Virus record (IMG/VR): IMGVR_UViG_2974791771_000001
Location: 12,822-76,821 of that record
Origin: a virus
Taxonomy: Duplodnaviria > Caudoviricetes
Direction: 5' to 3' (one strand)
DNA length: 64,000 nucleotides
In this document: positions 36,774 to 49,340 of the stretch, piece by piece
Layout: each line of letters starts with the position of its first letter
Position numbering within the stretch: position 1 is the first letter of the stretch
Made by a program: the position numbers and the translations under genes
Notes under the pieces: generated by a model
The model's database searches: none
Told to the model about the DNA's origin: nothing
The model's input: only the letters and a program-made list of their open reading frames with translations

Positions 36774-37210
36774 TGAAGAAAACTGTTGCGGCGGTGTTGA
36801 TTGCTGCGGTGGCCGGGTTGGGCTTGACGGCCTGCCACAGTGACGATGATTACGAGGATGTGAGCGCGGTCTGCGTCGATCCCGCCACGAACGTCCGTCT
36901 CGATGATGACGAGTGTGACGACGATGATGGCCCTTCGGTGTGGTGGTACTACGGTGCCGGTGCTGCTGTTCCGGCTGTCGGGTATGCGGTGGCGAAGAAC
37001 TCGGGGTCGTTCAAAAAACCTGCTCGTGCTCACATCCGGAAGGTGCCGCGCGTGGGTCAGGCGAAGCCTTCGGTGGTGAAGCCGCGTACGGCGTCGGCTC
37101 CGAAGCCCACGCAGAACAACAAGTCGTGGTTCGGTTCCAAGTCTTCGGGTTCGGGTTCGAAGTCGTCTTCTTCGGGTTCTCGGTCGGGAGGGTTCTCGCG
37201 TGGCCGCTGA
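36773..37210 (+). CDS. Lipoprotein with Ser/Gly/Lys-rich disordered tail
   Basis: Lipobox GLTAC; SSGSGSKSSSSGSRSGG tail. Confidence 0.7.
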   Translation: MKKTVAAVLIAAVAGLGLTACHSDDDYEDVSAVCVDPATNVRLDDDECDDDDGPSVWWYYGAGAAVPAVGYAVAKNSGSFKKPARAHIRKVPRVGQAKPSVVKPRTASAPKPTQNNKSWFGSKSSGSGSKSSSSGSRSGGFSRGR

Positions 37211-38120
37211 GCTAGTTGCCATGCGGGGCCTCCCCGCGTCAGGGAAGACCACCCGTGCACGGCAGATCGCGAAAGAGACCGGCGCTGTTGTTGTGGGCCG
37301 GGACTTCGAACGCTTCCAGATGTTCGGCGAGTGGTGGACGGGCAAGCCTGAGCATGAGGATGCTGTCACGGTCGCCCTGAATGCCAAGGTGCGAGCCTTG
37401 CTGAAGGCGAATCAATCTGTGGTGGTTGACAACACGCACATTCAGGTCAGGTACCTGAAGGATTGGGCGAAGGTCGCTTCGGAGTGCGGGGCCACGTTCC
37501 GGATCGAAGATGTGAAGACTCCGCAGGATGTGTGCGAGGAACGCGACTTCTGGCGGGAGGGCGCGGGTGAACGGTTCGTCGGCCCTGAGGTGATTGCCCG
37601 GATGGCGAAGCAGATCAACTGGGGAATACCGAAGCCGGTAGCGCCCATCGTCGTTGAGCCCGTTGACCACAAGGTTGCCGAAGAGCTGATGCTTCCCGGC
37701 GCGATCATCGTGGACATCGACGGCACGCTCGCGCACATGACTGGCCGTAGCCCGTACGACTACAGCCGCGTCGGCGAAGATCGGGTTGACCCCACCATCG
37801 CCAGAATGGTCCGGGAGTACGAACAACTCGGCTACGACATCATCGCGTGCTCGGGCCGGGACGACGAGTGCCGCACCATGACTGTCGCATGGCTGCTCGC
37901 CAACGACATCCCGTTCCACAAGCTGCTCATGCGGCCCACCGACGCCAAGGATGCCAACGGCAACAAACTGCCCGACTGGATCGTCAAGTACAACCTGTTC
38001 AACGAGAATGTGCGCGGCAAGTACGACGTGGAATTCGTTCTCGATGACCGCAACCAGGTTGTGGACATGTGGCGCAAGCTCGGCCTGAAGTGCTTGCAGG
38101 TTGCTCCCGGCGACTTCTGA
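37200..38120 (+). CDS. Polynucleotide 5'-kinase/3'-phosphatase (T4 PseT-like)
   Basis: GLPASGKT P-loop, VDNTH, HAD motifs DIDGT, SGR, DDR. Confidence 0.93.
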   Translation: MAAELVAMRGLPASGKTTRARQIAKETGAVVVGRDFERFQMFGEWWTGKPEHEDAVTVALNAKVRALLKANQSVVVDNTHIQVRYLKDWAKVASECGATFRIEDVKTPQDVCEERDFWREGAGERFVGPEVIARMAKQINWGIPKPVAPIVVEPVDHKVAEELMLPGAIIVDIDGTLAHMTGRSPYDYSRVGEDRVDPTIARMVREYEQLGYDIIACSGRDDECRTMTVAWLLANDIPFHKLLMRPTDAKDANGNKLPDWIVKYNLFNENVRGKYDVEFVLDDRNQVVDMWRKLGLKCLQVAPGDF

Positions 38121-38290
38121 TGTACGTCCCACCTGATCGTCCAGCACTCGAATGCCAAGCGTGCGGAACGGTATTGCAAGCCCTCACAGATGAGCAGGCC
38201 GCTGATGTCGCGCTCAATCCGTACAACTACATCGCCTTCTGTGCTCCGTGTAAGCGCAAGGGCTATCACATAGAACCAGGATTTCAATGA
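38120..38290 (+). CDS. Small Zn-finger protein
   Basis: CQAC and CAPC. Confidence 0.55.
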   Translation: MYVPPDRPALECQACGTVLQALTDEQAADVALNPYNYIAFCAPCKRKGYHIEPGFQ

Positions 38291-39606
38291 CCAACAGTCT
38301 CTCTGTTGTCGGCAGCAGCAACTACGCCGCACAGATCGTCCGCGTCCCCGCCACCTACCCGCTCGAAGGTCTCGACAACCTCGTGGGCATCAAGGTTTTC
38401 AACAGCCAAATCCTCACGCAGAAGAACGAAGTCGAAGCGGGAGACCTCCGCATCTACTTCCCCGCAGAGGTTCGACTCTCCGACAAGTACCTGTCGGTCA
38501 ACAACCTGTTCCGGGATCCGTTGCTCAACCGGGACAGCAAGGCCGCACCCGGCTACTTCGAAACCAACGGTCGAGTCAAGGCGATCAAGCTGCGCGGGCA
38601 CCGTTCCGACGGCCTGCTGATGCCGCTCGATTCCCTGCTCGCATTCGGCGTTCGCAGTGAGGATTTGGTTGAGGGTGCCGTGTTCGACACGGTGAACGGG
38701 ATTGAGATTTCCCGCAAGTATGAGGTGAAGACCTCGACGCCGGCCGACCCTTCCGCGAAGAAGGTGAAGAAGGCGTTCAAGCGGGTCACCACGAAGGTGT
38801 TCCCTGAGCACATCGACACCGATAACTTCTTCCGCAACCAGCATTTGCTTGACCCGTCGCGCGAGGTCATCATCACCCAGAAGCTTCACGGCACGAGCAT
38901 TCGTGTGGGTCGAGTCCCGGTGCTGCGGGAGATCGGTCTGGTGGAGCGCATCTTCAACAAGGTGGGTGGCCTGTTCGGCATCTCCACGCCGACTCACGCC
39001 TACGAGGTGGTGTGCGGTTCGCGGAAGGTCATCAAGGATGTGACGAACCCTCGTAGCCAGCACTACTACGGCACGGACATCTGGTCGCAGTACGGCATTC
39101 AGATCGGTGACCTGATCCCTGAGGGCTTCATTGTGTACGGCGAGCTGGTCGGTTGGACGCCGGACGGCAAGCCGATCCAGAAGAACTACACCTACGATCT
39201 GCCGGTTGGTAAGCGCGAGCTGTACGTGTACCGGGTGGCTCGTGTGGATGTGAATGGCACGATGACTGATCTGTCGTGGGATGCGGTGCGCGAGTTCTGC
39301 GTTGAGCGCGGCCTGAAGCATGTGCCTGAGCTGTACCGGATCATCGAAGAGGATGAACTGTTCGGCGACAAGCTCGAAGACCACGTGACGGCCCTGATGG
39401 ACATTGCGTTCACCGACTACGCGGAAGACAACGTGCATCGGGATCCGCTGGTGCCGCTGTCCGATCCGAACACGGTCGATGAGGGTGTCTGCATCCGCCA
39501 GGAACGTTCCGTTCCGACGATCCTCAAGGCGAAGTCGCCTGCGTTCCTTGAGCACGAAACCAAGCAGCTCGACACGGGCGAGGCCGACCTCGAAAGCGCA
39601 GCCTGA
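38287..39606 (+). CDS. ATP-dependent RNA ligase (Rnl2/DRB0094-like) with N-terminal OB-like domain
   Basis: Motif I TQKLHGT, III VYGEL, IV EGVCIR, V LKAKS. Confidence 0.88.
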   Translation: MTNSLSVVGSSNYAAQIVRVPATYPLEGLDNLVGIKVFNSQILTQKNEVEAGDLRIYFPAEVRLSDKYLSVNNLFRDPLLNRDSKAAPGYFETNGRVKAIKLRGHRSDGLLMPLDSLLAFGVRSEDLVEGAVFDTVNGIEISRKYEVKTSTPADPSAKKVKKAFKRVTTKVFPEHIDTDNFFRNQHLLDPSREVIITQKLHGTSIRVGRVPVLREIGLVERIFNKVGGLFGISTPTHAYEVVCGSRKVIKDVTNPRSQHYYGTDIWSQYGIQIGDLIPEGFIVYGELVGWTPDGKPIQKNYTYDLPVGKRELYVYRVARVDVNGTMTDLSWDAVREFCVERGLKHVPELYRIIEEDELFGDKLEDHVTALMDIAFTDYAEDNVHRDPLVPLSDPNTVDEGVCIRQERSVPTILKAKSPAFLEHETKQLDTGEADLESAA

Positions 39607-39798
39607 ATGCAGAACGGACAATCCCAGTGTTACGTCGCTTTCCCTAGCGAGCACTTCGATGTGGAGTCCTTGCGCTTCGCGTATGACCAGCTCATTGGCA
39701 TGGGCGTCCCCAGAACCCGGAAGCTCACCATCGAATCTGTACCCAAGGTGGGCGATGAGATGTGTGACGGAATCGCATTTGTGGAGGTAGTTCCATGA
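39607..39798 (+). CDS. Hypothetical protein
   Basis: Operon coupling. Confidence 0.45.
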   Translation: MQNGQSQCYVAFPSEHFDVESLRFAYDQLIGMGVPRTRKLTIESVPKVGDEMCDGIAFVEVVP

Positions 39799-40646
39799 CA
39801 GTTCATCTCTATGCAGCCGACCTCACCGACAGGTCGAAACCACTCATCAACGTGCAACGCTTCCAGTTCCCTGGCGGCGAACAGCACCTCCACATGCCCG
39901 CGCTCATCGACGGCCACAACTACGAATGGGTGGCCGTAGTCCGGGGTGCCGACGCCAACGAGCTGGTGGCCGCTGGCCTGCTCTCGGACATCGCCTACCA
40001 GCGCGGCGAACCCTCATCTCTCCTGTTGCCGTATCTTCCGGCTGCACGAGCTGATCGGGGCCAGCCGTTCGCGCTCGACACCTACGCGAATGTCATTGGT
40101 GCGCTGAACTTCGATGTGGTCACCACGCTCGACGTGCACAGTCAGGTCGGCATTGACATCGAGTTCGGGGACTCGTATCACGTGCACCTGTCGGCCACTC
40201 CCCTCGTTCTTGCGGCGGTGGAGCATCAGGACAAGTTTGATGCGGTGATCGCGCCGGACGCTGGCGCTCTTGACCGTGCGCGGTCTGTGGCCCTGGCCCT
40301 GCGGGTGCCCGTGTACAGCGGCGTGAAGGAACGGGACTTCGCGACCGGGAAGCTCACCAGCTTCTACTACTCGGGTCCGACCAACGGCAATTTCCTTGTG
40401 GTCGATGACATCTGTGATGGCGGCGGCACGTTCGCCGGTTTCGCTGCGGTGTCGGGGATCCCTCGCGAGAACCTGTCGTTGTGGATCACGCATGGCATCT
40501 TCTCGAAGGGGTCTGCGTCGAATCTGTTCCGCAATTACAAGGCTGTGTATACGACGGATTCGCATCCGGGTTCGGCGAATCTTCATGCGACTGTTCGTGT
40601 GCCGGTTGTGCCGCACATGTGGAAGCACGTAGCAGGAGGTCTGTGA
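39795..40646 (+). CDS. PRPP-synthetase-like protein (probable ADPR-PP synthetase, Adps)
   Basis: FPGGE, PYLPAARADR, LDVHS, APDAGA, VVDDICDGGGTF, THGIFS. Confidence 0.85.
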   Translation: MTVHLYAADLTDRSKPLINVQRFQFPGGEQHLHMPALIDGHNYEWVAVVRGADANELVAAGLLSDIAYQRGEPSSLLLPYLPAARADRGQPFALDTYANVIGALNFDVVTTLDVHSQVGIDIEFGDSYHVHLSATPLVLAAVEHQDKFDAVIAPDAGALDRARSVALALRVPVYSGVKERDFATGKLTSFYYSGPTNGNFLVVDDICDGGGTFAGFAAVSGIPRENLSLWITHGIFSKGSASNLFRNYKAVYTTDSHPGSANLHATVRVPVVPHMWKHVAGGL

Positions 40647-40864
40647 TGGGTCGGATGCAAGTCAAGGATGCGGAGTCCACCAAGCGCGTTCTTTCTATGG
40701 CCGACGATCAGTCGAAGTTGATCCTAACGGAAACGCTGGGATCTGGCGTTGCGGTCATAGAGGTTGCCGGTAGTTCCTACAGTGCGTACGCCAGCATTGT
40801 GCTCGACAAAGAGTCCGCAGTCATTCTCGGTGAACGCCTCATCGAATTCGGAAGCCAACCCTGA
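40646..40864 (+). CDS. Hypothetical protein
   Basis: TGATG overlap, RBS AGGAGG. Confidence 0.55.
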   Translation: MGRMQVKDAESTKRVLSMADDQSKLILTETLGSGVAVIEVAGSSYSAYASIVLDKESAVILGERLIEFGSQP

Positions 40865-40872
40865 AAGGGACC

Positions 40873-42348
40873 ATGACCAAGTTTGCGCCCGTAGCGGCAC
40901 TCTTCCAAACCGACGCCTACAAGCTCGGCCACATCCAGCAATACCAGCTCGCCGGAAACGTCACCCGCGTCTACAGCAACTACACCAACCGCAAGAGCCG
41001 CATCCCCGGCGTCGACAACGTGGTGCACTTCGGCCTTCAGGCGTTCATCCAGAAGAACCTCATGGAAGCGTTTGAGCCGTTCTTTGAGTCCGATGAGGAT
41101 GTTGTTGCCGAACTGTACGAAGAGCGCGTAGCGAGCATCCTGGGGCCGAACACGATCGGTTCCGATCACATCCGCGCCCTGCACCGACTCGGCTACCTGC
41201 CGCTGCGGTTCTGCGCGGTCCCGGAAGGCACCCTCGTGCCCATCCGGATCCCCACATTCACGGTGGAAAACACTCTGCCTGAGTTCTTCTGGCTGACCAA
41301 CTACATCGAGACCGCGTTGTCGGCTGGCGTGTGGCAGGCGAGCACGTCCGCAACCATCGCCCGCGAGTACCGACAGATCCTCGACGTTGCGGCATGGGAG
41401 ACGGGCAGCAGTTTCGATGCTGTCGACTTCCAGGTCCACGACTTCAGCTACCGGGGGATGAGTTCGAATGAGTCTGCCCAGGTTTCGGGTGCGGCGCACC
41501 TTCTTTCGTTCTCCGGGACAGACTCTCTCGTCGCTCTCGATTGGATTGACCGCTACTACGGAGGTTCGGATTACGTTGCGGCGTCGGTCCCCGCGACAGA
41601 GCACAGTGTCATGTGCACCGGCATTGCCAAGCTCGGTGAACAGGATATGTTCGCCAAGCTTCTCGACCTGTATCCGACCGGCATTGTGTCCATCGTCTCG
41701 GACACCTTCGACCTGTGGCGGGTACTGACTGAGTACCTTCCCGCGCTGAAGGACAAGGTTCTCGCCCGCGACGGCAAGCTGGTGATCCGTCCGGACTCGG
41801 GCGACCCGCAGAAGATCATCTGTGGCGACCCGGACGCCCCTGAGGGCAGCAACGAGTACCTGGGCGTGATCGGTCTGCTGGATCGCGTGTTCGGCTCCAC
41901 CCCGAACAAGCTGGGCTACTACGAGCTGGACTCGCACGTCGGCATCATTTACGGCGATTCGATCACAACGGAGCGCGCTCAGGCCATCGTTGACGATCTC
42001 GCTTCGCAGAACTACGCCAGCACCAACGTGGTGTTCGGCGTGGGCAGCTTCACTTACCAGTACAACACCCGCGACACCTTCGGCTCGGCGCTGAAGGCTA
42101 CGTGGGCTGAGGTGGACGGTGAGGGCGTGAACCTGCTCAAGGACCCCATCACTGACGACGGCACGAAGAAGTCGGCTACGGGCCGTCTGGCGGTCGATTT
42201 GGATGGTGATGGTGAGTGGACGCTGATTGAGAAGGCCAGCCAGGACGAAGAGGCACTGAGCCTGCTTCAGCCTGTGTGGGAGAACGGCGAGTTCGTCACG
42301 CGTCAGACCTTCCAGGACGTGAGGGAAACGCTCGCACTCTGGGGGTGA
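40873..42348 (+). CDS. Nicotinamide phosphoribosyltransferase-like protein (NadV/Nampt; probable Namat)
   Basis: TDAYKLGH, HDFSYRG, VPATEHSVM, SIVSDTFD, IRPDSGDP, IYGDSIT, FGVGS. Confidence 0.93.
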   Translation: MTKFAPVAALFQTDAYKLGHIQQYQLAGNVTRVYSNYTNRKSRIPGVDNVVHFGLQAFIQKNLMEAFEPFFESDEDVVAELYEERVASILGPNTIGSDHIRALHRLGYLPLRFCAVPEGTLVPIRIPTFTVENTLPEFFWLTNYIETALSAGVWQASTSATIAREYRQILDVAAWETGSSFDAVDFQVHDFSYRGMSSNESAQVSGAAHLLSFSGTDSLVALDWIDRYYGGSDYVAASVPATEHSVMCTGIAKLGEQDMFAKLLDLYPTGIVSIVSDTFDLWRVLTEYLPALKDKVLARDGKLVIRPDSGDPQKIICGDPDAPEGSNEYLGVIGLLDRVFGSTPNKLGYYELDSHVGIIYGDSITTERAQAIVDDLASQNYASTNVVFGVGSFTYQYNTRDTFGSALKATWAEVDGEGVNLLKDPITDDGTKKSATGRLAVDLDGDGEWTLIEKASQDEEALSLLQPVWENGEFVTRQTFQDVRETLALWG

Positions 42349-42353
42349 CCTGA

Positions 42354-42740
42354 TTGGCGATCGACTACACCAAACCTGAGCGCACGAAAATCTCGTACAA
42401 GAAGATTCGTGTGCCGAACAGGTCGATGGCCCCACGCTTCGAGGCAATCAAGCCGTGCCCGAAGTGTGGGGCCTGGCGGGTCCACTGGATGCGTGAACCC
42501 AACCCGGATGTGCCCAACCTCGTCAACTTCTACGGCGAGTTTGTGTGCAGGGCCGACGATCCCGACGCTGAACGCATCATCAAAGAGAACCGTCTTGAAC
42601 GAGAGATAGTCGGGTGGGGAATGGTGCGCACAGTCCGCACAGTCTATGACGAGTCAGTCCGACCCGATCGTGACGACGAACGCGGCTTCGAGGTGATCCG
42701 CCAATGCGTTGACTGCAAACACGAATGGGGAGAAATCTGA
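42354..42740 (+). CDS. Hypothetical protein (possible Zn ribbon)
   Basis: CPKC and CVDC. Confidence 0.6.
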   Translation: MAIDYTKPERTKISYKKIRVPNRSMAPRFEAIKPCPKCGAWRVHWMREPNPDVPNLVNFYGEFVCRADDPDAERIIKENRLEREIVGWGMVRTVRTVYDESVRPDRDDERGFEVIRQCVDCKHEWGEI

Positions 42741-43570
42741 ACACAACCAGACAGATCGCATACGACAACCTGATGATGCTCGGCGTAGCCGGATCGCAGC
42801 TCTACGGCACCAACCTGGACAACGGCGACAACGACCAGATGGGCGTCTGCCTAGAGCCACCCGCCTACGTGACCGGCCTGTTCACCTTCGAGCAGTACCA
42901 GTACCATTCCGCCGGCAAGGATACTCGTTCCGGCGCAGACGATCTCGACCTCACTATCTACAGTCTGCGCAAGTGGGCGCGACTCGCAGCAGCAGGCAAT
43001 CCCACGGTACTCCTGCTGGGTTTCACGCCGAAGCGACTCCTGCTGCACGACAGCGTGGATGGCCGAATCCTTCGAAACCACATGGACAAGTTCATGTCCC
43101 GCCAAGCCGCAGGCAAGTTCTATGGCTACCTGGAATCGCAGCGCAAACAGATGCTCGGTCTCACCGGACGCAAGCACAGCAATCGTCCAGAACTCATCGA
43201 GCAGTACGGCTTCGACACCAAGTTCGCCTACCACGCAGTGCGACTCGGAATGCAAGGCGTCGAGTATCTGACCACCGGGCACATGACGCTGCCGATGCGC
43301 GACGAGGAACGCAACTACCTCATCGACATCCGGCAAGGCCGCGAGTCCTTCGAAGATGTGGTGACCGTCATCAACCTGTACCAAGGGTTGCTGCTCAAAC
43401 TGATGCGCTCCACTGATCTGCCGCCGCGTGCGGACTACGACTGGATCAACTCGTGGCTCACCGACACCTACATTACTCACTGGGAACGCGAGGGGGTGGG
43501 TACTGACCTCTTGGCTAGACGAAGCTTCGGCAAGTCGATTCATAGGGCGTCACATCCGAACCCTGCGTAG
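42725..43570 (+). CDS. DNA-polymerase-beta superfamily nucleotidyltransferase (RlaP-like)
   Basis: GSQLYGT...GDNDQMG, GNPT.L, DTKFAYHAVRL. Confidence 0.82.
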   Translation: MGRNLNTTRQIAYDNLMMLGVAGSQLYGTNLDNGDNDQMGVCLEPPAYVTGLFTFEQYQYHSAGKDTRSGADDLDLTIYSLRKWARLAAAGNPTVLLLGFTPKRLLLHDSVDGRILRNHMDKFMSRQAAGKFYGYLESQRKQMLGLTGRKHSNRPELIEQYGFDTKFAYHAVRLGMQGVEYLTTGHMTLPMRDEERNYLIDIRQGRESFEDVVTVINLYQGLLLKLMRSTDLPPRADYDWINSWLTDTYITHWEREGVGTDLLARRSFGKSIHRASHPNPA

Positions 43571-43751
43571 ATGGCGGCAAGCACGGATCGTCGTGGCCCG
43601 CCACACCAAGTACGGCTACGAGTACGACAAGCAATCACTCCGTGCGGCGAAACTCCGCATGGCTCAACGCCGACTGATCGAGAAGGAAAACAACGGTGGA
43701 CGACCATTCAAGTACGCCCCCAAGCCCGGAGACATGGATCCCCTCTTCTGA
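43428..43751 (+). CDS. HTH DNA-binding protein (start uncertain, about 43500)
   Basis: LDEASASRFIGRHIRTLRRWRQ. Confidence 0.6.
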   Translation: MRTTTGSTRGSPTPTLLTGNARGWVLTSWLDEASASRFIGRHIRTLRRWRQARIVVARHTKYGYEYDKQSLRAAKLRMAQRRLIEKENNGGRPFKYAPKPGDMDPLF

Positions 43752-43959
43752 CTACGACCGTGCAGTGCACATTGTGGCCGAATCGGTCGCGGGTCGAGAG
43801 CCCACGGCCGACGATCTGAACCGGGCTGAGAAGCTGATCGCAGTGTTCTACAGTCTGGTGGAATCGCGGCTAATACCGTGTCCCCCCGGGGAGTAATGTT
43901 GTAAGTGAATCGGGGTTGAGAGAGCGCCCAAGACATTGAACGGCGTTCTTCACCCTGGA

Positions 43960-44026
43960 CTGATCGTCAGATGGGACATCTGCAGAGGTTTTGTAGGGTG
44001 CGCGGGTTCGAGTCCCGCCGATCAGA
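43960..44026 (+). ncRNA. Aberrant tRNA-like RNA
   Basis: Acceptor CTGATCG/CGATCAG and T-arm GCGGG-TTCGAGT-CCCGC; no canonical D or anticodon loop. Confidence 0.55.
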
Positions 44027-44028
44027 CG

Positions 44029-44145
44029 GGCGCAGATGCGTAGATTGTGGTTACTTCACTAATTGGATATGCAGGTTCAAGTCCTGCCGTCGGGGTGTAA
44101 AGTTACCCGACGTTTGTTCCACGATCGACCAAGTTCACTCGCGCC
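44029..44145 (+). ncRNA. Y-RNA-like unit 1 (carries a T-arm)
   Basis: GATGCGTA..GTTACTTC at 5', AAGTTC at 3', nested stems, GCAGG-TTCAAGT-CCTGC. Confidence 0.7.
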
Positions 44146-44153
44146 AACAACCA

Positions 44154-44226
44154 CCCCAGATGCGAAGGCTGCACAGTTACTTCAATTGGATGAAACGCAC
44201 ACTGTGTGCCATCCAGTTCCCTGGGG
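44154..44226 (+). ncRNA. Y-RNA-like unit 2 (minimal)
   Basis: CCCCAG/CTGGGG outer stem, GATGCGAA, GCACAG/CTGTGT inner stem, TTACTTC, CAGTTCC. Confidence 0.65.
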
Positions 44227-44237
44227 TTACATCTTCA

Positions 44238-44432
44238 CGTTCAGATGCGTAGAGACGTTGGTTACTTCCATTTTAAGGACGAGGTTGCGGGTTCGAATCC
44301 CGCCTGCGCTATGTTTACCCGAAGGTAGGGCCTGGCATAAAGGCCAGTGGTGGGGTTCGAATCCCCGGCTGTGACGGTAGCTCAATTGGCAGAGCGCGTA
44401 AAAACACCAACACTCGGCAAGTTCCCTGAACG
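44238..44432 (+). ncRNA. Y-RNA-like unit 3 (YrlA-type permuted tRNA domain with two T-arms)
   Basis: CGTTCAG/CTGAACG outer stem; T-arms precede the D-arm AGCTCAATTGGCAGAGC. Confidence 0.75.
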
Positions 44433-44444
44433 ATCAAACATTCC

Positions 44445-44523
44445 GCCGTGATGCGAAGCAAGAACGTTACTTCAACTGCTGATAGATGAAACCCACACGT
44501 TCATGCGCCACAGTTCACACGGC
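44445..44523 (+). ncRNA. Y-RNA-like unit 4 (minimal)
   Basis: GCCGTG/CACGGC outer stem, GATGCGAA, GAACG/CGTTC inner stem, TTACTTC, CAGTTCA. Confidence 0.65.
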
Positions 44524-44550
44524 ACAATTCAACACACAGGAGCAGAAGGA

Positions 44551-46149
44551 ATGTCGCGCTACAACACCGCCACCAAGGCCCGACCCGCACAAAAGTCGAG
44601 CGCCATCAAGGCAGGTACGAAGCCCAAAACCAACCCACAGGGTGGAACCGGATTCAAGCGCGGCGACGCCAAGTCCGAACTGTTCCTTTCCGCTGCAACC
44701 TCATTCATGCAGCCCAAATTCTACGAAACCGAGAACGATCTCCGCACGCGACAGCGCAAGCTCATCGCCAAGGTGGCCGTCTCCGACCCGGAGTGGACCT
44801 TCGAGTTCCTGACATGGCTCCGCACCGAAGGCAACCTGCGCACCGGGTCGCTCACCCTGGCCGCTGACGCCGTTTATGAGCGCCTGAAGGCGGGTAGGTA
44901 CGAGCACGGCTGGAACCGTGCGATCATCTCCACGGTCCTGCGCCGGCCGGACGAGCCTGGCGAAATGCTTGCCTACTGGACCAGCAACTACGGTCGCAAC
45001 GTGCCGATCTCGGTCAAGCGTGGCATCGCGGATGTCATCGAGGGACAGTACAACGAGCGCAACTTTCTGAAGTACGACAGTGCCTCTCGCGCCTTCCGGT
45101 TCGGTGATGTGATCGAGCTGACCCATCCGAAGATGACGGGCAGCCGGGGTGATCTCGCCTCGTATGCGATCACTGTGGGTAAGGGCCGTGACGCCGAGAT
45201 TCCTGATTCTCTGCCGATGATTCGAGAGAATCGCTCACTCCGCGCCACGGGCCTGAGCCCGAAGGTTCGCAAGTTGATCGCGGATCGAGGTGGCGACCTC
45301 TCCCAGGTTCTTGCTGCTGCTGGTATGACGTGGGAAGACATCCCCTCACTCGTCAACGGCCCCTGGACCCCCGAACTGTGGGAAGCCGCCATCCCCAACA
45401 TGGGAGTCATGGCGCTCATGCGCAACCTCCGCAACTTCGACCAGGTCGGCATCTCCAAGCAAGCCGCAAAGATGGTCCGAGACAAACTGTCCGACCGTGA
45501 AGCCGTCCTCAAGTCCCGCATCCTTCCCCTCCGCGCACTCAGCGCCTACAAGGCCGTCAGCAACTCCCGCTGGCACGGCGCACTCGAAGACGCGGTGGAC
45601 ATCACCCTGGACAACGTTCCCGCCCTGAAGGGCCGCACGCTGATCCTCGTGGACTGCTCGGGATCGATGTTCTTCAGCAACGGCACCGACCTGAGCTACG
45701 CGGAGTCGGCAGCCGTGTTCGGCACCGCGCTCGCCGCCAAGGCTGACAATGCGACTCTCGTGCACTACGGGTCGAACTCGCGTGAGGTCAAGGTGCCTCG
45801 TGGAGCTTCGGTGTTGGAGATGGCCCGCTCGGTGCACAGCATGGGTGGTACGGCCACCGCAGAGGCGATCCAGGCCCACTACAACGGCCACGATCGAGTG
45901 ATCCTGCTGACCGACGAGCAGCACAATGGTGGAGGCTACGGATGGGGCTCACGCTACGTGTCGGCGAGCCCTGGCGACTATGTGCCCAAGCACATCCCGC
46001 TCATCACCTTCAACCTCGCCGGATACAAACTCGGCGGCGTCAAAGACGAACCCAACCGGCTCACCTTCTCGTCCCTCTCGGACAGTGCATGGAAGCTGGT
46101 CGACATGTTCGGCAACGGCGCAACCGGATGGCCCTGGGAGGCTAAGTGA
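44551..46149 (+). CDS. Ro60/TROVE-domain RNA-binding protein with C-terminal vWA domain
   Basis: SELF, W.RTEGNLR, RPDEPGE.LAYW, MALMRNLRNF, vWA MIDAS DCSGSM, TDEQ. Confidence 0.93.
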   Translation: MSRYNTATKARPAQKSSAIKAGTKPKTNPQGGTGFKRGDAKSELFLSAATSFMQPKFYETENDLRTRQRKLIAKVAVSDPEWTFEFLTWLRTEGNLRTGSLTLAADAVYERLKAGRYEHGWNRAIISTVLRRPDEPGEMLAYWTSNYGRNVPISVKRGIADVIEGQYNERNFLKYDSASRAFRFGDVIELTHPKMTGSRGDLASYAITVGKGRDAEIPDSLPMIRENRSLRATGLSPKVRKLIADRGGDLSQVLAAAGMTWEDIPSLVNGPWTPELWEAAIPNMGVMALMRNLRNFDQVGISKQAAKMVRDKLSDREAVLKSRILPLRALSAYKAVSNSRWHGALEDAVDITLDNVPALKGRTLILVDCSGSMFFSNGTDLSYAESAAVFGTALAAKADNATLVHYGSNSREVKVPRGASVLEMARSVHSMGGTATAEAIQAHYNGHDRVILLTDEQHNGGGYGWGSRYVSASPGDYVPKHIPLITFNLAGYKLGGVKDEPNRLTFSSLSDSAWKLVDMFGNGATGWPWEAK

Positions 46150-46224
46150 TCGCAGCACTCATCGCATGGAACATCATCGCAGCCATCGTCGTAATCGGCG
46201 GCGCACTCACCCTCGCAAAAGTCT

Positions 46225-46941
46225 TTGAGTGAGCTGCACGATGCCGCGCTGAACTACCTGTACGAAGGATTCAAAGTCTTCCCGCTATGGCCTGGCGGGA
46301 AAACACCACTCATCAAACACGGCCTGCTCGAAGCGACGGACGACCCGGCCATTGTGGACGAATGGTGGGGACGCTGCCCGCAGGCAAACATTGGGGTGAG
46401 GGTGCCGGAACGAGTTGTAGTCATCGACATAGACCCCCGCTCTGGGGGCACACTCGACCAGCTCGGACCAATCCCACGAACACGCACAGCAGCAACAGGT
46501 GGCGGCGGATGGCATCTCCTATTCAGGCATGTTGGACGAGCACGAGGAAAGCTAGATGATGCCCGTGGTATCGACATCAAAACTAACAGCGGCTATATCG
46601 TTGGTGCGCCAAGCGTTCACGAGTCTGGCCGACGCTATCGCTGGACTGATCGAGGCCCTATCGCGGACCTTCCGGCATCCTTGCTCCGTCGGGTATCCCC
46701 TGCTCCCCCGCAGGTGGTGTGGGACGACCCTGGTGTGGGATCCACCAAGGGATTGGTTGCCACTGTCGCGGATGCGGTTGAGGGCGAACGGAACCACAAA
46801 TTCTTCTGGGCTGCGTGTCGGGCCTATCAAGAGGGGGCTGATGCTGAGTTGATGGGCGCGTTGGTAAATGCTGCTCGTTCGATTGGGTTGACTGAGCGTG
46901 AGATTGGGTTGTCTCTGCGTTCCGCTCAGGCCCGCGTATGA
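46225..46941 (+). CDS. Bifunctional DNA primase/polymerase (prim-pol N-terminal plus PriCT-like)
   Basis: VFPL.PGGK.P, NIGV, IDID, GGWHL, GIDIK, PSVH, GERN. Confidence 0.9.
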   Translation: MSELHDAALNYLYEGFKVFPLWPGGKTPLIKHGLLEATDDPAIVDEWWGRCPQANIGVRVPERVVVIDIDPRSGGTLDQLGPIPRTRTAATGGGGWHLLFRHVGRARGKLDDARGIDIKTNSGYIVGAPSVHESGRRYRWTDRGPIADLPASLLRRVSPAPPQVVWDDPGVGSTKGLVATVADAVEGERNHKFFWAACRAYQEGADAELMGALVNAARSIGLTEREIGLSLRSAQARV

Positions 46942-47160
46942 GCCTCGCGATCCATCGCGGTTTCCTCGTCACCTACAGTGACGGCTCTCAGGCTTTCGCT
47001 CTAAATGCCGAGCGAGTGCATGATCGTCTCCACGCCGGGTGGGAGCTTACCGAGATGGTTTTCGATATAGCAGACCCTCCACTGCCGTTGCTCATGTAAG
47101 ACTGAGTAGAAGTTTCGGCTCCGTTTAATAGACACTCCAACGTCACTCAAACGGGCGCAA

Positions 47161-47296
47161 CGGCTGATAGTCCAATGGAGCGGTCCTCACATATCGAACT
47201 AGCGGGCGTGCACGCCGACGGCTAGCGAATTTCTGTGAAGGGTCCAGGACGCCCCAAATGGTGGAGGAAATGCGGGTTCGAATCCCGCGAGGCCGA
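47161..47296 (+). ncRNA. tRNA-like RNA with about 75 nt inserted at the anticodon position
   Basis: T-arm GCGGG-TTCGAAT-CCCGC; TCCTC/GAGGA stem enclosing extra hairpins. Confidence 0.5.
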
Positions 47297-47375
47297 CCGT
47301 GCCCGACTGTGCACGTAAACAGTCCGCAGACGACAATCGGCAGGAACACTGCGGTATCAAAAGTTCCCACCCCAT

Positions 47376-47445
47376 GTAGCGTTGGTGTAGAGAGCACACT
47401 GGTGTGCAAAGCCAGAGGCGTGGGTGCAATTCCTGCACGTGTACT
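47376..47445 (+). tRNA. Degenerate tRNA-Cys(GCA)
   Basis: CTGGT-GTGCAAA-GCCAG anticodon arm; atypical T-loop (TGCAAT) and imperfect acceptor stem. Confidence 0.5.
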
Positions 47446-47446
47446 T

Positions 47447-47519
47447 GCCTTAGAAACCGAATTGGCTAGGTGCCTGACTTCCAATCAGGATTTTGCGGGT
47501 TCGAGTCCCGTCTAAGGCT
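47447..47519 (+). tRNA. tRNA-Gly(TCC)
   Basis: Full cloverleaf; CCTGA-CTTCCAA-TCAGG. Confidence 0.92.
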
Positions 47520-47617
47520 CAATGGGACGCCAGAGATAAACACTGGTGCGGTCGAAGCTGACCCGATTCAGAAACCCGCCGATTCCCGATCACAGGCCGA
47601 CTGTATAACCGGATCCT

Positions 47618-47688
47618 AGGGTGGTAGCTCAGTGGTAGAGCGGTGGTCTCCAAAACCACGTGCCGGGGTTCGATTCCCCGTCACCTTG
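47618..47688 (+). tRNA. tRNA-Trp(CCA)
   Basis: Full cloverleaf; GTGGT-CTCCAAA-ACCAC. Confidence 0.93.
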
Positions 47689-47730
47689 CGGTGTTCAGTA
47701 TCCTTGCAGTTCAACCGGATTGAACGTTCA

Positions 47731-47804
47731 CTCTCCGTAGCTCAGATGGTCAGAGCAGGGCACTCTTAATGCTCGGGTCGCAGGTTCGAATCCTGCCGGG
47801 GAGA
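47731..47804 (+). tRNA. tRNA-Lys(CTT)
   Basis: Full cloverleaf; GGGCA-CTCTTAA-TGCTC. Confidence 0.93.
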
Positions 47805-47878
47805 CGGCCCTCCTGTTGGGGTTATACGTCAGATCGCTACTGACACAACAGGCCATCAGGTCGGCCTACCTGATGGAA

Positions 47879-47948
47879 AGTCGCATAGTTTAACTGGTGA
47901 GAACAGCTTCCCTGTGGGGCGAGTGTCGGTTCGAATCCGGCTGCGACG
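47879..47948 (+). tRNA. tRNA-like gene with aberrant anticodon loop (possibly Gln CTG)
   Basis: Good D-arm and T-arm, 6-bp acceptor; anticodon arm GCTTC-CCTGT-GGGGC lacks U33 and purine 37. Confidence 0.55.
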
Positions 47949-48191
47949 CGATGGGGTGGTATTCCCAGTTTGCACAACCAGTCGACGGTCCGTGCTTGAA
48001 AAATGACCAGGGCGGCATTGCAGTGCCAAGTAACCATGACGGACTAAGCCCGATGAAGGCCGTCTAACCCCTCGCTGGTCAAGCCCTGCAAGGTACGGGC
48101 CGGGGACAATTTGGAGCCGTGGTCAAGCGGGACGCGGACTGTCACGAGAAGTGACCCTCACGGCAATGGGGAGGCCATCTCATTGTCCTTC

Positions 48192-48274
48192 CCCCACTTG
48201 GCGAAATGGGAAACGCGCGGCACTCAAAATGCCGTACCCGAAAGGGTTTGTGAGTTCGACTCTCACAGTGGGGA
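48192..48274 (+). tRNA. tRNA-Leu(CAA)
   Basis: Cloverleaf with long variable arm; CGGCA-CTCAAAA-TGCCG. Confidence 0.92.
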
Positions 48275-48651
48275 CATGACACGCATGATGCGCAAGAACT
48301 TCAAACTCATAGGCCGCTGCCACCCCTGGTGCGGAACTATGGACTACCTCGTTGGTCGCGCGAAAGAGAAACGGGACTGGCAGAAAGAAGCCAATGGCGC
48401 TCAATCCACCGCAACTCGCGGACCCAAACGCAATCGATGACCTCCCGCACTTAGAAGCACTGCGCCGCCTGTCGGCAATCTCCGCATACACATTCGCCAA
48501 CGCCACACAGGCCGACTCGGATGTGAACTCAATGGCAACGAAGGGCTGTTGGGCACCACCAATCGAGCACGGTACCTACAAGCCGGGTCACACACCTTCG
48601 GGTGCGTATGCCCGCCTGATCGGTCTGCTCACCAAGGGAAAGAAGTGACAC

Positions 48652-48840
48652 ATGGCATTTGGTCGTAAGAAGAAGCGCGCTGAGGACACCTACCGCCCGA
48701 ACACTTACAGCGGCAGTAGCTACAACGCCCCGTACGGCGGCTACAGCAACAGCGGCTACGACGGTGGTTCGTACACGTCGTCGTGTGACAACTCTTCGTC
48801 CTCGTCGTCCTCGTGCGACAGTGGCGGCGGCGGGTTCTGA
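48652..48840 (+). CDS. Small Ser/Gly/Tyr-rich protein
   Basis: Low-complexity ORF. Confidence 0.5.
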   Translation: MAFGRKKKRAEDTYRPNTYSGSSYNAPYGGYSNSGYDGGSYTSSCDNSSSSSSSCDSGGGGF

Positions 48841-49130
48841 TGGGAACCGCGCTAGTGATCGCGGGCATCTTCGGGGGCGCGCTCTTGATTGGAGCTGCGG
48901 TTGCCCTCGTCGCGAAAGCTGTGCTCGACTCGCCCCTGTCGCAGGGAAGCTCAACCTACAAGGGCGGGTTTGACCTCAGTCACCCCACGGGGGTTGCACT
49001 ACTGGTGGCGGCAACCTGATGGGGATCCTTGAAATCATCGGCGCGGCAGCGGTAGTTACAGCTATCGGCTACGTCGCGTACGTGGTTGGGCTGGCTGTCG
49101 CATTCCATCGCGGCTGGCTGTAGGCCACAT

Positions 49131-49201
49131 TCCCTGATCGTCTAACGGCAGGACGCCACGCTCTGGACGTGGAGATCGAGGTTCGAATCCTTGTCGGGGA
49201 G
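49131..49201 (+). tRNA. tRNA-Gln(CTG)
   Basis: Full cloverleaf; CCACG-CTCTGGA-CGTGG. Confidence 0.92.
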
Positions 49202-49257
49202 CTTGCCCTTGGGATGGGGTGCGGTCGACCGTAACCGCTACACAAATACGGTCACTA

Positions 49258-49340
49258 CTGGGTGCCGCCTACCCTGGTTTGGCAGCGGCCTGTAAAGCCG
49301 TCGCGGAAACGCATTGGGAGTTCAAATCTCTCCACCCAGA
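49258..49340 (+). tRNA. tRNA-Tyr(GTA)
   Basis: Cloverleaf with variable arm; GCGGC-CTGTAAA-GCCGT. Confidence 0.88.

What the first reader, a model, noticed from the sequence alone, without database searches (positions are those of the whole stretch)
43900..46149. Tandem array of four modular Y-RNA-like ncRNAs directly upstream of a phage Ro60/TROVE gene
Seen: the roughly 650-nt gap before the Ro60 gene contains four units (44029-44145, 44154-44226, 44238-44432, 44445-44523). Each has the same architecture: outer stem, GATGCG(T/A)A, inner stem, TTACTTC, a variable domain, the inner-stem complement, AGTTC(A/C), and the outer-stem complement. Stem sequences differ between units but pairing is kept, so structure rather than sequence is conserved. 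The variable domains differ: one T-arm plus hairpin (unit 1), short loops sharing GATGAAAC.CACA (units 2 and 4), and two T-arms plus a D-arm (unit 3). Established: Ro60 binds Y RNAs, bacterial YrlA RNAs mimic tRNA, and some phages carry Ro60/Y RNA. Unit 2 (GAUGCGAAGG...GUUACUUCAAUUG) resembles my recollection of the human Y1 5' segment. Inference: one Ro60 is loaded with a set of interchangeable adaptor RNAs that recruit, decoy or block different host RNA enzymes such as anticodon nucleases, PNPase or ligases. I am not aware of a four-unit modular array being described, but I could not search for it.
Basis: partly seen in the sequence, partly recalled or inferred. Interest (0 to 1): 0.9.

Follow-up and report, generated by a model that had tools for sequence, protein, structure and literature searches.

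The report
Phage Ro60 gene with four Y RNAs
A Gordonia-type phage carries, just upstream of its Ro60 RNA-binding-protein gene, four small structured RNAs that share one Ro60-type "handle" but carry different heads; this is the known Ro60/Y-RNA partnership in an unannotated four-copy form that also occurs in many related phages and bacteria.

Summary
All share outer stem / (G)AUGCG(A/U)A / inner stem / UUACUUC / variable domain / inner stem' / AGUUC(A/C) / outer stem'.

A covariance model trained only on short units finds exactly these four in the 64-kb window, and nothing else scores below E 0.8. The two stems covary strongly in 22 units from named phages and in 67 units from uncultured viral contigs: 91-94% of cells paired against 37-47% in slid controls.

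Unit 3 is a YrlA-type permuted tRNA mimic. It scores below Rfam's threshold, but so does the published phage ET08 YrlA.

The array is not unusual. Three to five such units precede Ro60 in Gordonia, Streptomyces and Mycobacterium phages, in about 30 viral contigs and in Mycobacteriales genomes.

Streptomyces phages have a real tRNA-Asn at that position.

This is a new, unannotated member of the known Ro60-Y RNA kind. In Trax and Neville the region is annotated as small ORFs. Expression, Ro60 binding and the "interchangeable adaptor" role remain untested. This scan has noted similar multi-RNA Ro60 arrays on other phage DNA.

The parts
43960..44026 (+). tRNA-like minihelix: 7-bp acceptor-like stem (43960-43966 with 44019-44025), an internal hairpin, a T-arm (44001-44018) and discriminator A. 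Neither ARAGORN nor the Rfam tRNA model calls it a tRNA. It is the likely RNase P / 3'-processing signal that sets the 5' end of the array.
   Evidence: Fold. T-arm match and mascRNA-like match. There are two compensatory base-pair changes in the acceptor stem against Trax (CUGAUCG/CGAUCAG versus CUGACUG/CAGUCAG). A genuine tRNA-Asn occupies the same position 1-4 nt before unit 1 in GiJojo, BRock and LuckySocke.
44029..44145 (+). Y-like unit 1. Outer stem GGCGC/GCGCC, AGAUGCGUA, inner stem GAUUGUGG/CCACGAUC, UUACUUC. Head: ACUAAUUGG, a T-arm-like hairpin (44071-44087) and a hairpin (44089-44111). 3' loop GACCAAGUUCA.
   Evidence: R2 hit of 30.5 bits, E 8e-5; this unit was not in the training set. 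Head fold.
44153..44227 (+). Y-like unit 2 (short type). Outer stem ACCCCAG/CUGGGGU, AUGCGAA, inner stem GGC-U-GCACAG/CUGUGUGCC. Its 25-nt head UUACUUCAAUUGGAUGAAACGCACA is conserved in other phages, including Forza.
44238..44432 (+). Y-like unit 3 (YrlA type). Same handle plus a permuted tRNA-like head: T-arm 44287-44303, D-arm 44380-44395. A 68-nt insertion lies between them, in the acceptor-like position, and carries two hairpins and a second T-arm (44352-44366).
   Evidence: Rfam YrlA RF02553 at 31.5 bits, E 8e-5, below the gathering score of 69. R2 at 26.5 bits, E 7e-4. Trax lacks the insertion and scores 44.1 bits for YrlA.
44445..44523 (+). Y-like unit 4 (short type). Outer stem GCCGUG/CACGGC, AUGCGAA, inner stem GCAAGAACG/CGUUCAUGC. 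Head contains GAUGAAACCCACA.
   Evidence: R1 at 33.7 bits, E 2.5e-6 (the model was built from unit 2 only). R2 at 69.3 bits.
44551..46149 (+). Ro60 homologue (532 aa; TROVE ring plus vWA), preceded by a purine-rich Shine-Dalgarno-like stretch at 44538-44550.
   Evidence: Pfam TROVE 3.4e-16 and VWA_2 9e-5. Nearest solved structures are Thermus phage phiLo Ro60 9KOP (2e-21) and D. radiodurans Rsr 2NVO (3e-5). 90.5% identical to the Ro-like protein of Trax and Neville.
37200..43570 (+). Context: an upstream RNA-repair / NAD-salvage cassette on the same strand. It holds polynucleotide kinase-phosphatase (37200-38120), RNA ligase (38287-39606), a phosphoribosyltransferase (39795-40646), NAPRTase/NAMPT (40873-42348) and an RlaP nucleotidyltransferase (42725-43570).
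   Evidence: Pfam matches. The Trax annotation shows the same gene order.
47380..49340 (+). Context: a downstream tRNA cluster on the same strand (8 Rfam tRNA matches, 6 ARAGORN calls).

Best explanation
The gap encodes a polycistronic array of four Y RNAs (about 75-195 nt each), the non-coding partners of the Ro60 protein encoded just downstream.

Each RNA is closed by the same handle. It consists of a terminal helix; an asymmetric internal loop with (G)AUGCG(A/U)A on the 5' strand and AGUUC on the 3' strand, in which G-N-A can pair with UUC; a second helix; and the invariant G-UUACUUC. I infer that this handle is the Ro60 docking site.

The heads differ: a T-arm plus hairpin (unit 1), a conserved A-rich loop (units 2 and 4), and a YrlA-type permuted tRNA mimic (unit 3). 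I infer that the heads tether Ro60 to different host RNA enzymes, for example PNPase or enzymes that recognise tRNA.

The array is probably transcribed with the flanking same-strand genes and cut out like tRNAs. The 5' tRNA-like minihelix would provide an RNase P / 3'-processing site 3 nt before unit 1, and the short G-poor spacers would separate the units.

Given the adjacent polynucleotide kinase-phosphatase, RNA ligase, RlaP and tRNA genes, the particle most likely acts in surveillance or repair of structured RNA and tRNA during infection.

Shown here: the architecture, the covariation, the genomic linkage to Ro60 and the recurrence in relatives. Inferred: transcription, processing, Ro60 binding, the partners and the biological role.
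For: - All four units are found by a structure model trained on other sequences, and nothing else in the window or genome is.
- Covariation in 22 units of named phages: 90.9% of cells paired against 37-42% slid, 14 of 16 pairs with changes on both sides, 0 of 500 shuffles as high.
- Covariation in 67 units of uncultured viral contigs: 93.9% against 37-47%, 15 of 16 pairs.
- The invariant single-stranded motifs (GAUGCG.AG, GUUACUUC, GUUC) sit next to freely varying stems.
- Against Trax, which is 80% identical over the region, the handles are almost identical. The heads differ by substitutions and by indels of lengths that are not multiples of three.
- The 5' motif matches the published Ro-binding GNCGAAN0-1G core CGAAG (PMC4201824).
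- Unit 3 and one or more units in every related array hit Rfam YrlA at 32-47 bits. The published phage ET08 YrlA scores 37.4 bits in the same search.
- Of 80 viral-contig loci picked by the RNA motif alone, 30 have a Ro60 gene directly downstream on the same strand, with 3-5 motif anchors each.
- Mycobacteriales TROVE loci carry up to 4-5 units.
- Precedents: M. smegmatis YrlA and YrlB are cut from one precursor upstream of rsr and immunoprecipitate with Rsr (PMC4201824). Phage phiLo Ro60 binds two upstream Yrl RNAs and host PNPase in vitro (PMC12135203).
- tRNA-punctuated placement: tRNA-Asn abuts the first unit in Streptomyces phages, and a Forza unit fills the gap between tRNA-Ile and tRNA-Met.
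Against: - There is no direct evidence of transcription, discrete RNA ends or Ro60 binding for this phage.
- No sigma-70-like promoter or convincing terminator flanks the array, so the transcription unit is unknown.
- Only units 2 and 4 carry CGAAG. Units 1 and 3 have CGUAG, and the first G of the published motif is U here.
- Rfam YrlA is below its gathering score for unit 3 and absent for units 1, 2 and 4. Rfam Y_RNA does not match.
- The covariation alignments were fitted to the model's structure, which inflates pair counts somewhat.
- The 5' flank of unit 4 can pair with the Ro60 start codon, which leaves room for a cis-regulatory role.
Confidence: 0.8

Rival explanations
1. The units are not released. 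They act in cis as a structured leader of the Ro60 mRNA, for example as autoregulatory Ro60-binding sites or as a switch that hides the ribosome-binding site.
For: Unit 4 ends only 27 nt before the start codon. The sequence ACAUUCC (44438-44444), just 5' of unit 4, is complementary to GGAAUGU (44548-44554), which includes the AUG; this helix appears in the minimum-energy fold of unit 4 plus leader. No promoter or terminator separates the array from Ro60.
Against: - Units with the same handle occur away from the Ro60 5' end: between tRNA-Ile and tRNA-Met downstream of Ro60 in Forza, and about 3 kb upstream among tRNAs in contig L040.
- In Kela an RNA ligase gene lies between the array and Ro60.
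- In M. smegmatis the homologous RNAs accumulate as discrete Rsr-bound species (PMC4201824).
- The start-codon pairing is identical in Trax, so there is no covariation to support it.
- This rival could coexist with the main explanation.
Confidence: 0.1
2. The region is a graveyard of decayed tRNA genes, left from the phage's tRNA cluster and without function of its own.
For: There are four T-arm-like hairpins and one D-arm in 600 nt. The tRNA cluster lies 1 kb downstream. YrlA-type RNAs are thought to derive from dimeric tRNA transcripts (10.1101/312249).
Against: Decay would not keep two non-tRNA helices paired through compensatory changes across dozens of phages and bacteria. It would not keep the GAUGCG and GUUACUUC motifs invariant. 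Units 2 and 4 contain no tRNA-like element at all.
Confidence: 0.04
3. The region encodes small proteins, as annotated in Gordonia phages Trax (gp91-93) and Neville.
For: The GenBank records annotate three 43-50-aa hypothetical proteins here. The window has a 93-aa ORF at 43971-44252.
Against: The ORF structure is not conserved. A 14-nt indel and larger indels relative to Trax shift the frames, so three ORFs in Trax correspond to one differently framed ORF here. The conservation pattern is identical stems and motifs with divergent heads, not third-codon-position variation. The base-pair covariation is unrelated to any reading frame.
Confidence: 0.02

Closest known systems
Actinobacterial and mycobacteriophage Y RNAs YrlA/YrlB with Rsr (Ro60): M. 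smegmatis, phage ET08 (Chen et al. 2014, PMC4201824; Rfam RF02553)
   Same: - They are encoded directly upstream of Ro60 on the same strand.
- The terminal stem carries a CGAA-type motif on its 5' strand.
- One RNA has a permuted tRNA-like head with the T-arm 5' of the D-arm.
- A sister RNA has a T-arm or a simple head.
- In M. smegmatis they are made from one precursor.
- The UUAC..CUUC element is visible in the published M. smegmatis probe sequences, and the ET08 units have GGUUACCUC.
   Different: - There are four units here, against the two described for M. smegmatis.
- Two copies of a short A-rich-loop class are, as far as I could find, not described.
- The acceptor-like position of unit 3 holds a 68-nt insert with a second T-arm.
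- A tRNA-like minihelix precedes the array.
- The Rfam YrlA score is below threshold.
Thermus phage phiLo Ro60 with Yrl1 and Yrl2 (PMC12135203; PDB 9KOP, 9L5Y)
   Same: A phage Ro60 with several Y-like RNAs directly upstream, each a stem / large internal loop with CGAA / stem. Its Ro60 is the nearest solved relative of the window's protein. Binding to Ro60 and to host PNPase was shown there in vitro.
   Different: phiLo has two RNAs, not four, and no tRNA-like head is reported. The host phylum is different. Nothing has been tested for the window's phage.
Metazoan Y RNAs (human RNY1, 3, 4, 5; Rfam RF00019)
   Same: Several paralogous Y RNAs serve one Ro60. The design is modular, with a Ro-binding stem plus a variable loop. 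Unit 2 shares CGAAGG and GUUAYYUCAA with the first 30 nt of RNY1 at nearly the same spacing (RNY1 sequence from PMC6052916).
   Different: There is no covariance-model match, and the pairwise score is within window background. Metazoan Y RNAs are separate polymerase III genes, not a tandem co-oriented array. They have no tRNA-like heads.
S. Typhimurium rsr-yrlBA-rtcBA RNA-repair operon and D. radiodurans Rsr/Yrn1/PNPase (RYPER)
   Same: Ro60 and Y RNAs are linked to RNA-repair enzymes. Here the neighbours are polynucleotide kinase-phosphatase, an Rnl-type RNA ligase and RlaP. 10.1101/312249 notes that Rsr and YrlA sometimes sit next to other RNA ligase families.
   Different: The ligase here is not RtcB, and no RtcR regulator is present. 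The setting is a lytic-phage genome with its own tRNA set.

Membership tests
Bacterial/phage Y RNA (Ro60-associated ncRNA; Chen et al. 2014) | Encoded within a few kb of a Ro60/TROVE gene, on the same strand | tested here: met
   Units lie at 44029-44523 and the Ro60 gene at 44551-46149, both on the + strand. The same linkage appears in 30 viral contigs picked by the RNA motif alone.
Bacterial/phage Y RNA (Ro60-associated ncRNA; Chen et al. 2014) | 5' and 3' ends pair into a stem | tested here: met
   The stem and an internal loop are present in all four units and the stems covary.
Bacterial/phage Y RNA (Ro60-associated ncRNA; Chen et al. 2014) | The 5' strand of the terminal stem carries the Ro-binding motif GNCGAAN0-1G | tested here: inconclusive
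   The motif here is (A)UGCG(A/U)AG. Units 2 and 4 have CGAAG; units 1 and 3 have CGUAG. The first G of the published motif is U.
Bacterial/phage Y RNA (Ro60-associated ncRNA; Chen et al. 2014) | Physically bound by Ro60 and stabilised by it | not testable with these tools
   This needs immunoprecipitation or gel-shift experiments. No RNA sequencing run is listed for this phage.
YrlA (Rfam RF02553) | Covariance-model score at or above the gathering score (69 bits) | tested here: not met
   Unit 3 scores 31.5 bits, E 8e-5 in a 751-nt search. The published phage ET08 YrlA scores only 37.4 bits and Trax unit 3 scores 44.1 bits in the same kind of search, so the threshold excludes accepted actinophage members too.
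YrlA (Rfam RF02553) | Permuted tRNA-like head: T-arm, then a closed acceptor-like stem-loop, then a D-arm, all enclosed by the Ro-binding stem | tested here: met
   In unit 3 the T-arm (44287-44303) and D-arm (44380-44395) align to the model consensus with posterior probabilities near 1. The acceptor-like position holds a 68-nt insertion. Units 1, 2 and 4 do not have this head.
YrlA (Rfam RF02553) | tRNA-type modifications, or recognition by tRNA enzymes (RNase P, CCA-adding enzyme, TruB, DusA) | not testable with these tools
   These are biochemical assays.
Metazoan Y RNA (Rfam RF00019) | Match to the family covariance model | tested here: not met
   No Y_RNA match at E<=10 in the 751-nt or the 85-nt search.
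tRNA (for 43960-44026) | Cloverleaf with D, anticodon and T arms, recognised by ARAGORN or the Rfam tRNA model | tested here: not met
   ARAGORN and the Rfam gathering search do not call it. Only the acceptor stem and T-arm are tRNA-like.

The most novel reading that the evidence does not exclude
Many tailed phages, and Actinobacteria, run a 'multi-adaptor' Ro60 particle. One Ro60 ring is programmed by a tRNA-operon-embedded array of 3-9 Y RNAs. These share an invariant handle (GAUGCG.AG / GUUACUUC / GUUC) but carry fast-evolving, swappable heads. Each head recruits or decoys a different host RNA enzyme. Together with the phage's polynucleotide kinase-phosphatase, RNA ligase, RlaP and tRNA set, this would counter tRNA- or RNA-cleaving host defences. 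The GUUAYYUC element shared with human Y1 would then be an ancient, so far unrecognised part of the Ro60-Y RNA interface.
Probability: 0.2. Interest if true: 0.75.

Novelty: new member of a known kind. Interest (0 to 1): 0.42.

Why it matters
Ro60-Y RNA particles are conserved from bacteria to humans and are a lupus autoantigen. What the variable Y RNA heads recruit remains largely unknown, and the role of phage Ro60 is unknown.

This locus offers a compact natural set of four heads on one handle. It sits in a phage group whose members (Trax, Neville) and host (Gordonia terrae) are culturable. Unit-by-unit deletion, pull-down and binding tests are therefore ordinary experiments.

There is also a practical point. 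The region is mis-annotated as small ORFs in Trax and Neville, and as odd tRNAs in several Streptomyces and Gordonia phages. The handle model built here would allow systematic annotation. The finding extends a known system rather than revealing a new one.

Tried and rejected
- Rfam gathering-threshold scan of the window: only tRNAs, no Y RNA family.
- Rfam Y_RNA (metazoan): no hit, even at E<=10 on 85 nt.
- Human Y1 likeness: a local alignment of the first 30 nt of RNY1 (from PMC6052916) scores 7-9 against the units. About 1.5% of 45-nt windows of the 64 kb score 9 or more, and the best chance hit scores 13. It is a motif-level resemblance only.
- RNAalifold on a plain MAFFT alignment of 13 short units gave no structure, because the 3' halves were misaligned. 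I replaced this with a hand-seeded covariance model and iteration.
- My first heuristic helix finder mis-assigned several units and crashed. I did not use it.
- Pseudoknot idea: the head AAUUGGAUG (unit 2) or AACUG (unit 4) pairing with the 3' loop CAUCCAGUU or CAGUU. The complementarity is there in units 2 and 4, but I found no consistent equivalent in units 1 and 3 or in the Streptomyces-phage units. It is left as unproven.
- UUACUUC pairing with the 3' loop: no conserved complementarity.
- Promoter and terminator scan of 42500-47500: no promoter-like site, and terminator-like sites at the chance level.
- Sequencing runs: no RNA holder listed.
- Whole-genome search of the Tsukamurella genome with R2: nothing at E<=0.1, because the units score too low for a 5.6-Mb search. 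They are found in the local search.
- The viral-contig pattern scan gave 87 stretches. By my own estimate that is close to the number expected by chance for single matches. I therefore counted only loci with a Ro60 gene or several anchors.
- The Annual Review on bacterial Ro60 (Sim et al. 2020) and the supplement of Chen et al. 2014 are not held. I could not check whether larger arrays are mentioned there.
Full report
**What is there**

The window belongs to a complete 76.8-kb virus record. Its nearest named relatives are Gordonia phages Trax and Neville (Deeyouvirinae), at 80% nucleotide identity over 43900-44560 and 90.5% identity for the Ro60 protein. The ORF at 44551-46149 is a Ro60 homologue: Pfam TROVE 3.4e-16 plus vWA. 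Its nearest solved relatives are the Thermus phage phiLo Ro60 and D. radiodurans Rsr. The last upstream ORF ends at 43896, which leaves a 654-nt gap.

**Checking the observation**

The four units are exactly as described. GTTACTTC and GATGCGWAG each occur four times on the + strand inside the gap, at constant spacing, against 0.8 and 1.25 expected in the whole window.

I seeded a covariance model from unit 2 with a hand-drawn structure (R1). It found unit 4 (E 2.5e-6) and short units in six other phages. I rebuilt the model from those ten short units (R2).

R2, run on all 64 kb with filters off, returns four hits and no others below E 0.8: 44030-44144, 44153-44227, 44238-44432 and 44444-44524, all on the + strand. 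Units 1 and 3 were not in the training set. No further copies exist in the genome.

**Is the structure real?**

- On 22 units from the window and nine related loci, 90.9% of cells in the two helices form standard pairs, against 37-42% when the 3' partner is slid. Fourteen of 16 pairs show changes on both sides, and no shuffle out of 500 reaches the observed values.
- On 67 units from uncultured viral contigs, none used for training, the figures are 93.9% against 37-47%, and 15 of 16 pairs.
- These alignments are fitted to the model, which favours the structure somewhat, but the margin is large.
- Between the helices the single-stranded motifs are nearly invariant: G-AUGCG-N-AG on the 5' side, G-UUACUUC after the inner helix, and GUUC on the 3' side.
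- G-N-A of the 5' motif can pair with UUC of the 3' motif. That gives a bulged mini-helix like the Ro-binding site of known Y RNAs. This last point is inference.

**Comparison with Trax**

The handles are almost identical in the two phages. The heads differ by substitutions and by indels whose lengths are not multiples of three: a 14-nt indel in unit 1, the 68-nt insertion present only in the window's unit 3, and a rewritten loop in unit 4. This pattern fits an RNA with a constant docking module and fast-evolving heads. It does not fit the three small proteins annotated there in Trax and Neville.

**Identity of the units**

- Unit 3 matches Rfam YrlA through its T-arm and D-arm (31.5 bits, E 8e-5). 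That is below the gathering score of 69. The published mycobacteriophage ET08 YrlA (Chen et al. 2014, PMC4201824, Fig. 1D) scores only 37.4 bits in the same kind of search. Every related array has at least one unit at 32-47 bits. The threshold is therefore not a fair test for this clade.
- Unit 1 has a T-arm-like hairpin plus a second hairpin, like the 'possible T-arm' described for M. smegmatis YrlB.
- Units 2 and 4 share an A-rich head (UUACUUC-AA(U/C)UG...GAUGAAAC.CACA). A near-identical head occurs in a unit of the distant Gordonia phage Forza and, less closely, in Streptomyces phages.

**A fifth element**

Positions 43960-44026 fold into a 7-bp acceptor-like stem, one hairpin and a canonical T-arm. 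Against Trax the acceptor stem has two compensatory changes, while the interior is rewritten. Neither ARAGORN nor Rfam calls it a tRNA.

It ends 3 nt before unit 1. In GiJojo, BRock and LuckySocke a genuine tRNA-Asn ends 1-4 nt before the first unit. In Forza a unit fills the space between tRNA-Ile and tRNA-Met.

I infer that the array is cut out by the tRNA-processing machinery. For comparison, M. smegmatis YrlA and YrlB are processed from a single precursor, and YrlA is an RNase P substrate (PMC4201824).

**How common are such arrays?**

- Named phages: Trax has 4 units; GiJojo and LuckySocke 4-5; BRock 4; Frankenweenie, Kela and Satis 3; VanLee 4 anchors with a divergent 5' motif. ET08 has 3 by eye, with motif GCCGA..GGUUACCUC. 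A Tsukamurella soli locus has 3.
- Viral contigs: a motif scan gave 87 stretches, about what chance predicts for single matches by my own estimate. Thirty of the 80 loci examined have a Ro60 gene directly downstream on the same strand, with 3-5 anchors each.
- Bacteria: in a sample of 201 genomes of the Tsukamurella order, 19 have a TROVE gene. R2 finds up to 4-5 tandem units upstream.

The four-unit array is therefore typical of this clade, not exceptional.

**Literature**

- Chen et al. 2014 report YrlA-type RNAs next to Ro60 in 254 bacteria and 22 phages. They report at least two Y RNAs in each of three species studied, and suggest that extra Y RNAs widen the range of Ro60 partners.
- The phiLo paper (PMC12135203) shows that two upstream Yrl RNAs bind the phage Ro60 and host PNPase in vitro.
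- I found no paper in the searchable library that describes arrays of three or more Y RNAs in actinophages. The 2014 supplement and the 2020 review are not held.
- Earlier notes of this scan record similar multi-RNA arrays beside Ro60-like genes in other phages, and first-reader notes on Trax. I treated these as leads only.

**Human Y1 resemblance**

The first 30 nt of RNY1, as printed in PMC6052916, share CGAAGG and GUUAYYUCAA with unit 2 at nearly equal spacing. The local alignment score (8) lies within the background of the window, and Rfam's Y_RNA model gives no hit. It is a lead, not evidence of membership.

**Context and mechanism**

Upstream on the same strand lie a polynucleotide kinase-phosphatase, an RNA ligase, two phosphoribosyltransferases (NAD salvage) and an RlaP nucleotidyltransferase. 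Downstream lie a primase-polymerase and a tRNA cluster. Rsr and YrlA are known to sit beside RNA ligases (10.1101/312249).

My best explanation, at confidence 0.8 for 'Ro60-bound Y RNAs', is this. A co-transcribed array is processed into four Y RNAs that dock on Ro60 through the shared handle. Their heads tether the ring to different RNA enzymes, in the service of RNA surveillance or repair during infection. The role in defence or counter-defence is plausible but untested.

A cis-regulatory role is a minor rival and could coexist with this. ACAUUCC at 44438-44444 can pair with GGAAUGU at 44548-44554, which covers the start codon.

**Verdict**

This is a new, unannotated member of a known kind and of moderate interest.

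Noticed in passing
window 43880-43946: The stretch from the end of the upstream ORF to just before the tRNA-like element differs from Trax at a single base (one C/T change, near its start). The array's heads and the tRNA-like interior diverge. It could be a promoter or another conserved signal; the sigma-70 consensus scan found nothing.
   Followed up: partly
window 44438-44444 and 44548-44554: ACAUUCC, just 5' of unit 4, is complementary to GGAAUGU, which covers the Ro60 start codon. The helix appears in the minimum-energy fold of unit 4 plus leader (about -9.5 kcal/mol for the duplex). It may couple Y RNA processing to Ro60 translation. The sequence is identical in Trax, so there is no covariation.
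   Followed up: partly
window 44304-44379 (inside unit 3): The 68-nt insertion that Trax lacks contains a UACC-CGAA-GGUA hairpin (ACCCGAAGGUAG, which echoes the Ro-binding CGAAGG motif), a CUGGC/GCCAG hairpin and a second T-arm. It looks like the 3' part of another tRNA captured in the acceptor-like position. That would fit the proposed origin of YrlA from multimeric tRNA transcripts.
   Followed up: partly
window 37200-43570: An RNA-repair and NAD-salvage cassette lies on the same strand as the array: polynucleotide kinase-phosphatase, Rnl-type RNA ligase, a phosphoribosyltransferase, NAPRTase/NAMPT and an RlaP nucleotidyltransferase.
   Followed up: partly
L003 2769-2843 (GiJojo), L008 1274-1347 (LuckySocke), L002 2704-2775 (VanLee), L005 2745-2835 (Frankenweenie): GenBank and ARAGORN call tRNAs here (Arg-cct, Ser-gct, Arg-tct, and a 91-nt Pro-tgg). 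These overlap, and in three of the four lie inside, units found by the handle model or YrlA-like hits. They are probably Y RNA modules, or tRNA-Y chimeras, rather than decoding tRNAs.
   Followed up: partly
L013 4902-4973 (Gordonia phage Forza): A short-type unit (GGCCGAAG ... GGUUACUACUCAAUUGGAUGAAUAACAC) fills the gap between tRNA-Ile and tRNA-Met in the tRNA cluster about 1.3 kb downstream of Ro60. Units therefore need not lie in the Ro60 leader.
   Followed up: partly
L057 (IMGVR_UViG_3300012231_000050), 797-1537: Nine G(U/A)UAC(U/C)UC anchors fall within 750 nt of a 1.65-kb fetched stretch. Three of them are confirmed by R2. This may be a much longer array.
   Followed up: no
L004 5079-5242 (BRock) and L008 3467-3699 (LuckySocke): Near-threshold matches to the manA RNA motif (49.7 and 47.8 bits; gathering score 55.2) lie among the tRNA-Lys genes downstream of Ro60. 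In BRock the match lies under an annotated 'collagen triple helix' CDS.
   Followed up: no
window 47380-47439 and 49258-49340: Two weak tRNA-model matches (31.7 and 39.4 bits) are not called by ARAGORN. They may be degenerate or unusual tRNAs in the phage's tRNA cluster.
   Followed up: no
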